64,000 nt of DNA from Escherichia phage vB-Eco-KMB42, in the sequence record OR539221.1, one strand, 5' to 3'. Shown here in pieces: positions 37,858-41,275 of this stretch. Under the pieces are notes generated by a model. That model had not been told where the DNA came from. It ran no database searches and saw only the letters and a list, made by a program, of their open reading frames with translations. Position numbers and translations under genes: made by a program. Each line of letters opens with the position of its first letter. Positions within the stretch are counted from its first letter, which is position 1.

Positions 37858-38718
37858 TTATACCGCCATTTTTCCTTTAATTGGCGGGTGAGATACATAG
37901 TTTTTAAGAACAAAATCATGTGGCTTTGCAAATTGACTCAACCAAAATACCTGCGATTCTGTGTCCCATTCATCAAATTCATCTGGAAATTTTAATTGTA
38001 ATTCGCATAAATCCATAGGTTCACGGCGTAAAATTTCTTTACATTGTTCTACGTGATTCATATAGATATGAGTATTACCACCAGAAAATATCAAATCTCC
38101 AGGAATAAGATTACACATTTTAGCTACAATATGAACTAACGTAGCATATGATGCAATATTAAATGGAAGACCGAGGAAAACATCTACCGAACGTTGATAC
38201 CACTGCAAATCCAAATAGCAATTACGCACATTAAACTGATAGAACATATGACAAGGAGGTAATGCCATATATTTAAGTTCAGCTGGATTCCATGCAGAAA
38301 CAATTTGACGCCTATCATTTGGCAGTTTTTTAATACGATCAACAACTTCTATAATTTGGTCTACACCGCCAAAATCACGCCACTGTTTTCCATAAATTGG
38401 ACCAAGTTCACCGCTATGGTATCCTAAATCTTTTGCCTGATTTTCGTAATTTTCATCCCAAACTGTTTTGCCTTGGATTAACGAATCGTGTTGAATTAAT
38501 CGTAAATCATTGACATTTGTGCTTCCTGATAAAAACCATATTAGCTCAGCAATGCATGCATTCCAGGCGAGCTTTTTAGTTGTTACTGCAGGAAAACCTT
38601 TAGTTAAATCCCAGCGTAATTTAGTACCGAACAAAGCAATTGTTCCTGTGCCTGTTCGATCATCGGTTTCATAGCCATTTTCAAAAATGTCTTTAATTAA
38701 ATCTTGGTATTGTTTCAT
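37858..38718 (-). CDS. td: thymidylate synthase, uninterrupted (no group I intron)
   Basis: continuous 286-codon ORF; ThyA active-site region ALPPCH. Confidence 0.95.
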   Translation of the reverse strand: MKQYQDLIKDIFENGYETDDRTGTGTIALFGTKLRWDLTKGFPAVTTKKLAWNACIAELIWFLSGSTNVNDLRLIQHDSLIQGKTVWDENYENQAKDLGYHSGELGPIYGKQWRDFGGVDQIIEVVDRIKKLPNDRRQIVSAWNPAELKYMALPPCHMFYQFNVRNCYLDLQWYQRSVDVFLGLPFNIASYATLVHIVAKMCNLIPGDLIFSGGNTHIYMNHVEQCKEILRREPMDLCELQLKFPDEFDEWDTESQVFWLSQFAKPHDFVLKNYVSHPPIKGKMAV

Positions 38719-38763
38719 TTAGTACCTTATATAAATTATAATACATTTTATGAAGCTAAATAA

Positions 38764-39111
38764 TCAATACGGTTTAGCATCAAATTTTCTCTCAATTTCA
38801 GGCGTGAAATATAATTCTTTACCACGTTTGGAAAAGCGACCAATAATATGATAATTATTCTCATCAAACGTGATATTACCAATATCCATAGCTTTCAACC
38901 AAATATCAATATTTCTATCCAGCTTTATGTCAAAATTCCAATACGGAGAACTATTACCGAAAATACTGCAAGCGGATTCAGTGAAACAACTGCTATAAAT
39001 CTTGTCTTTAGGAACTACTAATTGATAGACACCTTTAATAAACTGAGGACCCTGCCACTTTGGCTGTTTCTCGTCTTTTTCTAATAGAATAGGGTAATAA
39101 TTAAAATTCAT
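38764..39111 (-). CDS. hypothetical protein of unknown function (115 aa) inserted between frd and td
   Basis: clean ORF with phage-like codon usage; not recognised from T4 gene set; no nuclease motifs seen. Confidence 0.6.
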   Translation of the reverse strand: MNFNYYPILLEKDEKQPKWQGPQFIKGVYQLVVPKDKIYSSCFTESACSIFGNSSPYWNFDIKLDRNIDIWLKAMDIGNITFDENNYHIIGRFSKRGKELYFTPEIERKFDAKPY

Positions 39112-39130
39112 ATTTCCGCCACGCGTTATT

Positions 39131-39953
<823 letters not shown>

Positions 39954-39969
<16 letters not shown>

Positions 39970-40313
39970 TGAAAGGGGCCAGAAGCAAATCCGCTATCTT
40001 TAATCATTTTAACTAAAGTTACCATTCCTCTGTTAACTGCTTGTGCGATTTCATTAAAAACTTCATCACTATCACCATAAAGATCGCTAAAAAGTTCTAA
40101 CACGTTCTTCTGAACCTTTAATTTACAACCAACAAATTCGCCTACAGTAAATTCGTTTCCGCCAACTCCAGCGTAAAACGTAATTACACCAGTTAATGGT
40201 CTTTCACTAGAACATAGGTCGTGTGATAAATTAATATAAGCCGTCCCGGGCGCAGTTTTAAGTTGGCAACGAATACTTACTCGAGCAATTCCAGCTACAC
40301 GAATGTCAGACAT
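39954..40313 (-). CDS. hypothetical protein (frd.2 position)
   Basis: ORF in synteny. Confidence 0.6.
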
Positions 40314-40574: not shown

Positions 40575-40640
40575 CCTCAGTAGTTGATAGGGTAATAGTA
40601 TCACACTACTACCCTGTTGTAAACAATTATTTTTGAATTT
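40575..40640 (-). promoter_or_regulatory. early promoter upstream of frd.3-position gene
   Basis: minus-strand GTTTAC (40619-40624), -10 TACTAT. Confidence 0.55.
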
Positions 40641-40887
40641 TATCGAGCCACTTACCAAGCTTAATCATTTCTTTAGTAGCCTTTTCCATACTTCTGAACT
40701 TAACTAATAGAGGATAGGTATCGACACCCATAACTAAATTGGTTGCAAGACTGTGTTCACCCACAAGCCATAACGAATACGTTTGAATATCGAGTCCGTA
40801 ATTTCTGTCTTTATGGACCCGTACACCCATCACTTCAAATTTCTCACTAGCTTTTTCTACCGCATCCAGGAAATCATCTTTAGTCAT
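40627..40887 (-). CDS. hypothetical protein (variable region between frd.3 and gene 32)
   Basis: ORF; start placed at ATG 1 nt after upstream stop. Confidence 0.5.
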   Translation of the reverse strand: MTKDDFLDAVEKASEKFEVMGVRVHKDRNYGLDIQTYSLWLVGEHSLATNLVMGVDTYPLLVKFRSMEKATKEMIKLGKWLDKIQK

Positions 40888-40888
40888 A

Positions 40889-41275
40889 TTAGGCCTTAAA
40901 AGTTTTTCGCAAAAGTTCAATGATTTCATCTACATTGTTTTCGTCAACAATACAGTGAATTTTTGTTACGCCAGAAACTATACCTTCATTAGCGGATTGA
41001 GGCTTTTCTAAAGCTACCTCAGTAAAGTATTTGAATTCTTCAGGGTAAATCTCAAAATACGTCTCAAGTGGGCCACCCGCCATGTATTCAGTGCCATCTT
41101 CCATAGTTACACGTACCACACATTCACCAGTACAATCATCACTTTCCATTTCATCTACAACAAAACTAGGTCCGTGCTTCTCTATTAAATTTAGCATCAT
41201 TACATTGCAACGGCACTCGTTAGCAAAGTCATTTTTAAATAAAGGGTTAATGATATAAGTTTTTCCAACTTCCAT
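40889..41275 (-). CDS. hypothetical acidic protein (variable region, 128 aa)
   Basis: ORF preceded by hairpin plus SD. Confidence 0.55.
   Translation of the reverse strand: MEVGKTYIINPLFKNDFANECRCNVMMLNLIEKHGPSFVVDEMESDDCTGECVVRVTMEDGTEYMAGGPLETYFEIYPEEFKYFTEVALEKPQSANEGIVSGVTKIHCIVDENNVDEIIELLRKTFKA

What the first reader, a model, noticed from the sequence alone, without database searches (positions are those of the whole stretch)
38719..39130. Uncharacterised gene wedged between frd and td, which I recall as overlapping in T4
A 115-codon minus-strand ORF (38764-39111) sits between the frd stop (39131) and the td start (38718). As I recall the classical T4 sequence, frd and td overlap at an ATGA junction, so the whole ~410-bp segment looks like an insertion into the nucleotide-metabolism operon. 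The junction next to frd (AATAACGCGTGGCGG) is GC-rich and atypical for this AT-rich genome. The protein (MNFNYYPILLEKDEKQPKWQGPQF...) has no GIY-YIG, HNH or LAGLIDADG signature, so it is not an obvious homing endonuclease. It is a candidate moron or anti-defence gene carried at a site that in T4 hosts a mobile intron.
Basis: partly seen in the sequence, partly recalled or inferred. Interest (0 to 1): 0.7.

Follow-up and report, generated by a model that had tools for sequence, protein, structure and literature searches.

The report
Accessory gene between frd and td
This is a real but ordinary 115-codon phage gene of unknown function that most T4 relatives (including T2 and T6) carry between their dihydrofolate reductase and thymidylate synthase genes; T4, the textbook reference, is the unusual one for lacking it.

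Summary
A 115-codon minus-strand ORF (38764-39111) lies between frd (39131-39712) and an intron-less td (37858-38718). In T4 the two genes overlap at ATGA.

The ORF is not a private insertion. The identical protein is already deposited many times. It is PHROG 1928 (unknown function). About 70% of Tequatrovirus genomes carry it at this spot, including T2 and T6. Diverged copies (26-63% identity) sit in the same frd-td slot in at least eight other T4-like genera, often beside a tandem paralogue.

Within Tequatrovirus the slot has three states: this gene (about 71%), an unrelated 68-codon gene (about 24%), or empty as in T4 (about 5%). The window equals T4 plus 416 bp bounded by a 9-bp direct repeat, TAAATGAAA. 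I lean towards repeat-mediated loss in T4, but gain is not excluded.

The gene is under strong purifying selection (pN/pS 0.07) and has normal base composition. It has no nuclease motif, so the 'putative homing endonuclease' label in some GenBank records is unsupported.

A confident AlphaFold model shows a small beta-barrel with OB-like strand order. It has no significant match to any solved structure. Function is unknown; a dispensable binding factor is my best guess.

The parts
38764..39111 (-). Gene 'X': 115-codon CDS (stop included), member of PHROG 1928; predicted small beta-barrel protein
   Evidence: ORF list; PHROG hit E=3.1e-36; 581 phage records; pN/pS 0.07; AF2 model pLDDT 90
39112..39130 (-).
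   Evidence: Sequence; 47% GC; conserved in all X-type Tequatrovirus loci
39129..39137 (-). Direct repeat copy 1, TAAATGAAA, spanning the frd stop codon (extended imperfect form TAAATGAAATAA)
   Evidence: the 9-mer occurs 10 times on both strands of the 64-kb window
38713..38721 (-). Direct repeat copy 2, TAAATGAAA, spanning the td start codon (extended TAAATGAAACAA). T4 has exactly one copy, so the window equals T4 plus 416 bp
38719..38763 (-). 45-nt X-td spacer (16% GC) with a MotA-box-like middle-promoter motif, GCTTCA-N12-TAATTT, at 38756-38733; identical in the 8 X-type alleles compared
   Evidence: (pi = 0). This is a consensus match only; function not shown
39131..39712 (-). frd (dihydrofolate reductase), upstream neighbour; 96% identical to T4 Frd
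37858..38718 (-). td (thymidylate synthase), downstream neighbour; intron-less here (286 aa continuous)

Best explanation
WHAT IT IS (well supported). The ORF is a genuine protein-coding gene. It belongs to a small family, PHROG 1928, found only in T4-like phages of Enterobacterales. In every locus examined it lies between frd and td. It occurs alone, with a tandem paralogue (X2), or with X2 plus a 68-codon gene (Y).

In the genus Tequatrovirus the frd-td gap is a three-state polymorphic slot. It holds X (about 71% of records; T2, T6 and this window), Y (about 24%), or nothing (about 5%; T4).

HOW THE DIFFERENCE FROM T4 AROSE (inferred, about 0.6). The window equals T4 plus 416 bp bounded by the 9-bp direct repeat TAAATGAAA. 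That repeat is built from the frd-stop and td-start contexts. The T4 junction is most simply a repeat-mediated deletion of X from an X-type allele. Such a deletion recreates a working ATGA stop/start coupling.

HOW THE GENE WORKS (inferred, about 0.3). X is read from the frd-td polycistronic message using its own weak Shine-Dalgarno-like element. The product is a roughly 13-kDa non-enzymatic beta-barrel with OB-like strand order (b1-b2-b3-helix-b4-b5). It has a conserved aromatic/basic face: Q16, K18, W19, H/K26, Y29, R92, F93, K95.

I think it acts by binding a nucleic acid or a protein partner. I take it to be a dispensable accessory factor directed at the host or at competing phages, not a component needed for dTMP synthesis.
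For: Real gene:
- PHROG 1928, E=3e-36.
- 581 phage records, one copy each.
- The exact protein is on 80 contigs.
- pN/pS 0.07, with 68 synonymous against 21 non-synonymous differences.
- Normal GC and GC3.

Restricted family: an HMM search of 1.8 billion representatives gave 23 hits. Of these, 21 are standalone proteins of 95-116 aa; the two longer ones are repetitive and spurious.

Synteny: X lies directly after frd and before td in all 22 loci compared.

Paralogue X2.

Three-state slot: an evenly spaced sample of 544 records gave 39 X, 13 Y and 3 empty. The Y allele was verified in three of them.

Repeat-bounded indel.

Deletion direction:
- T4-type flanks differ from X-type alleles by only 6-7/297 and 4-11/300 nt. 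X-type alleles differ from each other by up to 84 and 52 nt.
- Empty junctions sit on two td haplotypes, each shared with X-type alleles.
- X itself has pS 0.07, so it is not a recent arrival.

Dispensable: T4, about 145 Mosigvirus records and the Y-type phages lack X.

Structure:
- AF2 model with pLDDT 90 and pTM 0.83, and OB-like element order.
- There is no invariant His, Asp, Glu or Cys.
- pI is 6.8-9.4 and the proteins are aromatic-rich.
Against: No experiment or database annotation gives a function.

Against the deletion direction:
- RB69 and about 145 Mosigvirus records have exactly the T4 junction.
- X of this phage is 63% identical to X of an unrelated T4-like contig (L027), although Frd is only 49% and other small ORFs 28-45%. 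That points to lateral exchange.
- The 12-nt imperfect duplication TAAATGAAAyAA would also fit an insertion that duplicated its target.

Strict placement between frd and td could instead mean a role in thymidylate metabolism.
Confidence: 0.5

Rival explanations
1. Gain rather than loss. The overlapping frd/td junction (T4, RB69) is ancestral for the T-even group. X was brought into most Tequatroviruses by recombination with another T4-like lineage, duplicating about 9-12 nt of the junction.
For: RB69 and about 145 Mosigvirus records, plus TH40 and UPEC07, have the same contiguous junction TATAAATGAAACAATACC. X(window)-X(L027) identity is 63%, against Frd 49%, Td 77% and other small ORFs 28-45%. 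The segment is flanked by TAAATGAAAyAA, and the left copy reads like a mutated td (or Y) start, ATGAAATAA.
Against: T4-type flanks nest inside X-type allele diversity, and empty junctions occur on two td haplotypes shared with X-type alleles. X alleles are as diverse at silent sites (pS 0.07, pi 0.03) as the quiet parts of frd and td. The junction sequence is forced by coding (VYK-stop / MKQYQ), so identical junctions can arise independently. Outgroup genera all carry X.
Confidence: 0.35
2. X is an accessory subunit or adaptor of the thymidylate-synthesis module. It could, for example, bridge DHFR and thymidylate synthase or tether them to DNA or gp32 in the phage dNTP-synthesising complex.
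For: X is invariably placed between frd and td. Stop/start overlaps couple it to both neighbours in several genera. OB-like barrels often mediate protein or ssDNA contacts.
Against: T4, in which that complex was defined (my own knowledge), has no X, and neither do RB69 or the Y-type phages. Presence/absence polymorphism within one genus is typical of accessory genes. Position may simply reflect inheritance or recombination through conserved flanks.
Confidence: 0.15
3. X is a free-standing homing endonuclease, as annotated ('putative homing endonuclease') in phages TadeuszReichstein, FriedrichMiescher and ValerieMcCarty04.
For: It lies between two conserved genes and is absent from some close relatives, like seg and mob genes. 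That annotation appears in three GenBank records.
Against: No GIY-YIG, HNH, LAGLIDADG or other nuclease domain, for the query or for any of 24 family members. No invariant His, Asp, Glu or Cys. The predicted fold is a beta-barrel with no nuclease match. At 95-119 aa it is too small to hold both a nuclease and a DNA-binding domain. The family is syntenic across genera, not sporadic.
Confidence: 0.03
4. The ORF is a non-functional or decaying reading frame.
For: T4 and others dispense with it. The Shine-Dalgarno element is weak.
Against: pN/pS 0.07. The frame is intact in about 360 genomes. The motifs Q16, W19, G27, G91, K95 and G97 are conserved across 24 sequences down to 26% identity. The fold prediction is confident.
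Confidence: 0.02

Closest known systems
PHROG 1928 (uncharacterised phage protein family)
   Same: Full-length HMM match, E=3e-36, covering profile positions 2-125 of 126. The tandem paralogue X2 of other genera falls in the same PHROG.
   Different: Nothing differs; X is a member. The family has no assigned function, no Pfam or NCBIfam model and no solved structure.
OB-fold nucleic-acid-binding domains (Teb1, RPA, Stn1-Ten1, bacterial SSB, S1 domains)
Free-standing homing endonuclease genes of T4 (segA-G, mobA-E) and the td intron endonuclease I-TevI
   Same: A small gene wedged between conserved nucleotide-metabolism genes, present in some relatives and absent in others. It sits about 550 bp from the I-TevI homing site.
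   Different: No nuclease motif or fold. The family is conserved at one syntenic position across genera and is under purifying selection as a binder-like barrel.
Variable small ORFs of T4-like 'hyperplastic' regions (frd.1-frd.3, nrdA.1, nrdA.2 and similar)
   Same: Small, same-strand, early-region ORF whose presence varies between close relatives. Neighbouring ORFs 39712-39969 and 39954-40313 are likewise missing from T4.
   Different: The frd-td slot is tightly delimited. It holds only three alternative contents in Tequatrovirus (X, Y or nothing), each joined to frd and td by stop/start overlaps or short spacers.

Membership tests
PHROG 1928 | Significant full-length match to the family HMM | tested here: met
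   E=3.1e-36, 124.9 bits, residues 4-111 against profile 2-125/126
Homing endonuclease (GIY-YIG / HNH / LAGLIDADG / His-Cys / PD-(D/E)xK) | A recognisable catalytic motif or domain | tested here: not met
   Pfam and NCBIfam: no hit for X. Of 24 family members none hits a homing-endonuclease family; the one nuclease-named hit (RNAse_A_bac, E 0.14, one member) is below significance. The invariant residues are Q, W, G, G, K, G; there is no His, Asp, Glu or Cys
Homing endonuclease | Nuclease fold (alpha/beta GIY-YIG, beta-beta-alpha-metal, LAGLIDADG saddle) | tested here: not met
Homing endonuclease | Sporadic distribution with a cleavable target in genomes lacking the gene; super-Mendelian inheritance | tested here: inconclusive
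   Presence/absence polymorphism exists within Tequatrovirus, but the family is syntenic and diverged across at least 8 genera. Inheritance bias is not testable here
OB fold | Five-stranded barrel with a helix between strands 3 and 4 | tested here: inconclusive
   The element order fits, but barrel closure could not be inspected and an extra strand follows the helix
OB fold | Significant structural superposition on known OB domains | tested here: not met
OB fold | Binding of ssDNA, RNA or oligosaccharide on the b2-b3 / L12 / L45 face | not testable with these tools
   Only the conservation pattern (K18, W19, Y29, R92, F93, K95) is suggestive
Moron (independently expressed inserted gene) | Own promoter and terminator; atypical base composition | tested here: not met
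   No terminator, and promoter-like sites are not above the shuffled expectation. GC 32.5% and GC3 29% match the neighbours
Known anti-defence proteins with solved structures | Sequence or fold similarity to a characterised inhibitor | tested here: not met
   No PDB sequence hit and no significant PDB fold hit. No dedicated anti-defence HMM library was available; PADLOC, which holds defence systems, gave nothing

The most novel reading that the evidence does not exclude
X (with its paralogue X2) founds a new family of small beta-barrel binders with no solved structural relative. It acts in phage-host or phage-phage conflict, for instance as a counter-defence factor, or as a protector of the neighbouring td gene against I-TevI-driven intron homing and marker exclusion by T4-type phages. 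The second idea would explain why the td intron is rarer in X-type genomes (6/39) than in Y-type or empty genomes (10/16).
Probability: 0.2. Interest if true: 0.55.

Novelty: already known. Interest (0 to 1): 0.28.

Why it matters
Because T4 is the reference genome, genes that T4 happens to lack stay invisible to classical genetics. This one is carried by T2, T6 and about 70% of sequenced Tequatroviruses. It is kept under strong purifying selection and has no assigned function or solved structural relative.

The textbook 'overlapping frd/td' arrangement turns out to be the rare state of a three-state slot. That corrects an easy misreading ('insertion') and an unsupported database label ('putative homing endonuclease').

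It also gives a clean natural experiment. X-type, Y-type and empty alleles occur on nearly identical backgrounds, so the gene's function, and any link to td-intron spread, can be tested. None of this is surprising in kind: small variable ORFs are the norm in T4-like genomes.

Tried and rejected
Homology and structure:
- Pfam, NCBIfam, PADLOC and PDB sequence searches, single-sequence and profile, gave nothing.
- The AFDB50 fold library was unavailable.
- Two long 'homologues', P0021 and P0024, are repetitive eukaryote-like sequences. They are spurious, so there are no domain fusions.

Evolutionary tests:
- I looked for a correlation of X against Frd and Td pairwise identities as a test of vertical descent. 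It is uninformative because the genera are star-like: rho is about 0 even for Frd against Td.
- I looked for relics of a donor frd 3' end in the GC-rich spacer, and of X2 or Y 3' ends in the X-td spacer. There are only weak resemblances (13/17 nt and similar), which I do not rely on.
- The linkage 'empty junction always with td intron' is rejected as absolute, because FL12 is empty and intron-less.

Other:
- Rfam gave only one sub-threshold chance hit.
- Literature searches for the frd-td interval, the PHROG number and the locus tag RB32ORF229c found no paper about this gene.

Full report
**1. The observation**

Reading the minus strand of 38400-39500 and listing ORFs confirms three genes:
- frd at 39131-39712;
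- a 115-codon ORF at 38764-39111, starting MNFNYYPILLEKDEKQPKWQGPQF, here called X;
- td at 37858-38718.

td is uninterrupted (286 aa), so this phage has no td intron. The window is a Tequatrovirus genome. The 701 bases around the ORF are 99% identical to phages such as vB_EcoM_G4498 and JK23.

In NC_000866 frd is 145109-145690 and td ends at 145112, so the genes overlap by ATGA.

The 'GC-rich junction' is a 19-nt spacer. Its GGCGG lies four nt before the ATG and looks like a Shine-Dalgarno element. The ORF's own composition (32.5% GC, GC3 29%) matches frd and td. Nothing else of note lies on the other strand. Rfam gives only one sub-threshold chance hit.

**2. The ORF is a real gene and a common one**

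- It matches PHROG 1928 (unknown function) over its full length at E=3e-36.
- tblastn finds it once per genome in 581 phage records. Of these, 362 are at least 90% identical, including T2, T6, RB5, RB18, RB32 and RB68. The other 219 are below 60% identical and come from Klebsiella, Enterobacter, Citrobacter, Salmonella, Serratia and Erwinia phages.
- The exact protein of the window is already in public databases on 80 contigs, always as 'hypothetical protein'.
- Eight Tequatrovirus alleles differ at 68 synonymous and 21 non-synonymous positions summed over pairs. That gives pS 0.072, pN 0.005 and pN/pS 0.07, which is strong purifying selection.
- An exhaustive HMM search of 1.8 billion representative proteins found only 23 hits. 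Of these, 21 are standalone proteins of 95-116 aa.
- The two longer hits are repetitive junk. The family is therefore small, phage-restricted and never fused to another domain.

**3. The position is conserved**

In all 22 loci with a homologue that I compared, X lies immediately after frd and before td. These loci were:
- T2, T6 and a BASEL phage;
- Kanagawavirus, Jiaodavirus and Roskildevirus;
- Moon-like, Serratia, Salmonella and Klebsiella phages;
- IMG/VR contigs;
- two Logan contigs.

Stop/start overlaps are frequent at these junctions. Examples are frd-ATGA-X in L027, and in Jiaodavirus X overlapping both frd and td.

A profile search of all ORFs in these loci shows that most non-Tequatrovirus genera carry a second, diverged copy, X2, next to X. 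X2 falls in the same PHROG. Some genera also carry a 68-69-codon gene, Y, just before td. The fullest array is frd-X-X2-Y-td.

No paralogue exists elsewhere in the 64-kb window, nor in the T4 or RB69 regions examined.

**4. T4 is the rare state of a three-state slot**

I ran a megablast with 1.3 kb spanning frd 3', X, td exon 1 and the start of exon 2, and listed 60 hits at even steps through 544 records. Slot and intron state can be read from the span of each match. Of the 55 classifiable rows:

| Slot state | Rows | Share | With td intron |
|---|---|---|---|
| X | 39 | 71% | 6 |
| Different ~206-bp insert (Y) | 13 | 24% | 7 |
| Empty, as in T4 | 3 | 5% | 3 |

Fetching three of the second class (UGKSEcP1, ACG-C40, GRNsp7) shows a 68-codon ORF. 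Its start overlaps the frd stop and its stop overlaps the td start. It is 79-81% identical to Y of the Logan contig L027 and of a Klebsiella phage. It belongs to PHROG 9550, also of unknown function. The other Y-type rows are inferred from span and annotation only.

Empty junctions also occur in e11/2, SG1, JEP6, HY03, G2133 and FL12. They occur as well in RB69 and about 145 Mosigvirus records, and in TH40 and UPEC07.

**5. Anatomy of the difference from T4, and its direction**

The window has TAAATGAAA at the frd stop (39137-39129) and again at the td start (38721-38713). T4 has one copy. The window therefore equals T4 plus 416 bp. The repeat extends imperfectly to TAAATGAAAyAA. The 9-mer is common in this genome, with 10 copies on both strands of the 64-kb window, because T4-like genes often end in TAA/TGA and start ATGAAA.

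For loss in T4:
- Within 300 nt on either side, T4-type alleles differ from X-type alleles such as the window, Bas43 and T6 by only 6-10 and 4-15 nt.
- X-type alleles differ among themselves by up to 84 and 52 nt.
- Empty junctions sit on two distinct td 5' haplotypes, each shared with X-type alleles.
- X has silent-site diversity like the quiet parts of its flanks (pi 0.03).
- All outgroup genera have X.

For gain in the other Tequatroviruses:
- RB69 has the same junction sequence.
- X of the window is 63% identical to X of L027, although Frd is only 49% and other small ORFs 28-45%. X has therefore moved laterally at some point.
- A flanking duplication is what a target-duplicating insertion would leave.

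The RB69 identity is weak evidence. The junction is dictated by the conserved Frd C-terminus (VYK-stop) and Td N-terminus (MKQYQ), so independent repeat-mediated deletions would give the same sequence. Only such deletions leave both genes functional.

I put loss in T4 at about 0.6 and gain at about 0.35. A pairwise-distance correlation test was uninformative.

**6. What the protein is**

- No curated family matches, and there is no PDB sequence relative.
- With a 24-sequence alignment, AlphaFold2 gives a confident model: pLDDT 90.1, pTM 0.83.
- Its elements are strands 6-12, 27-34 and 62-64, a helix at 68-77, a short strand at 80-82, and a hairpin at 86-96 and 99-104. That is the OB-fold order.
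- Foldseek against the PDB finds nothing better than E=1.3.
- In BFVD only uncharacterised T4-like phage proteins match, including the Cronus paralogue.
- The invariant residues are Q16, W19, G27, G91, K95 and G97. Nearly invariant are L9, Y29, N79, F93 and F102, and R92 is conserved in 21 of 24 sequences.
- There is no conserved His, Asp, Glu or Cys.
- pI is 6.8-9.4 and the proteins are rich in aromatics.

This describes a small non-enzymatic binding module, not a nuclease. The 'putative homing endonuclease' label in phages TadeuszReichstein, FriedrichMiescher and ValerieMcCarty04 has no support.

**7. How it probably works**

Shown:
- It is a selected protein-coding gene.
- It is on the same strand as frd and td and tightly packed with them.
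- It has no promoter or terminator of its own.
- It is dispensable, since T4, RB69 and the Y-type phages lack it.

Inferred: it is translated from the frd-td message and acts by binding. Its presence varies within one genus. It can be replaced by an unrelated small gene, and it has been exchanged laterally. I therefore favour an accessory role in host or inter-phage conflict (about 0.3) over a role as an adaptor of the DHFR/thymidylate-synthase module (about 0.15). Neither is demonstrated.

One curiosity may bear on this. The td intron is much rarer in X-type genomes (6/39) than in Y-type or empty genomes (10/16; Fisher p = 0.001). The records are not independent and haplotype structure may explain the pattern.

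**8. Comparison with what is known, and verdict**

X is a member of PHROG 1928. It fails the membership tests for homing endonucleases and for morons. It resembles OB folds only below significance. It resembles the many small variable ORFs of T4-like hyperplastic regions. Two more ORFs just upstream of frd (39712-39969 and 39954-40313) are likewise missing from T4.

I found no paper on this gene.

The finding is a correct observation of an ordinary, already-catalogued but uncharacterised accessory gene. The 'insertion' reading is at best half right. Interest is modest.

Noticed in passing
window 37858-38718 and related loci (sample): td is intron-less here. Across an evenly spaced sample of Tequatrovirus records the td intron is present in 6/39 X-type genomes but in 10/16 Y-type or empty genomes (Fisher p = 0.001; records are not independent). 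All four combinations exist: FL12 is empty and intron-less, while T6 and G8 are X-type with the intron.
   Followed up: partly
L032:1667-1873, L033:1667-1873, L034:1667-1873 (UGKSEcP1, ACG-C40, GRNsp7): About a quarter of Tequatroviruses carry an unrelated 68-codon gene (PHROG 9550, unknown function) in the frd-td slot instead of X, overlapping the frd stop and the td start. It is 79-81% identical to the gene just upstream of td in distant T4-like phages (L027, L007), so it is far better conserved than Frd (49%).
   Followed up: partly
L004:2326-2685, L007:2290-2643, L027:4332-4673, L006:1559-1993 and others: Most non-Tequatrovirus genera have a tandem, diverged paralogue (X2, same PHROG 1928) next to X. 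In Erwinia phage Cronus the paralogue precedes X. A heterodimer is conceivable.
   Followed up: partly
window 38733-38756 (-): The X-td spacer contains GCTTCA-N12-TAATTT, a relaxed match to a T4 MotA-dependent middle promoter (10 such matches on the minus strand of the window). If real, td has its own middle promoter in X-type phages, which the T4-type junction lacks.
   Followed up: no
window 39712-39969 (-) and 39954-40313 (-): Two further small ORFs directly upstream of frd (PHROG 3183; DUF7247 / PHROG 3566) have no counterpart in the corresponding T4 or RB69 region. T2 has the first only, and T6 has both. The whole frd-gene 32 interval is a patchwork.
   Followed up: partly
window 40889-41275 (-) and 40627-40929 (-): The frd.2-like ORF is 70% identical to RB69 frd.2 but only 41-45% to those of T4, T2 and T6, which is a mosaic segment. 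The 100-codon ORF 40627-40929 has no match in the T4, T2, T6 or RB69 regions fetched.
   Followed up: no
L003:2690-3037 (MZ501106), L005:2001-2318 (OR271596), MZ501066: GenBank records of BASEL and related phages label X 'putative homing endonuclease'. Other records call it 'reductase' or 'putative dihydrofolate reductase'. None of these labels is supported by sequence or predicted fold.
   Followed up: yes
frd nt 201-400 and td nt ~100-540 in loci L002-L014: Within Tequatrovirus, frd and td contain patches of high diversity (pi 0.10-0.16) next to quiet stretches (0.01-0.03). L014 has a frd 3' haplotype with 75-84 differences in 297 nt. This is evidence of recombination with divergent alleles inside these genes.
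   Followed up: no
OP978391 (HP3.2) and L034:2425-2672 (GRNsp7): Some Tequatroviruses carry short td introns (about 320 and 250 bp) with no I-TevI ORF. e11/2 has a truncated I-TevI.
   Followed up: no
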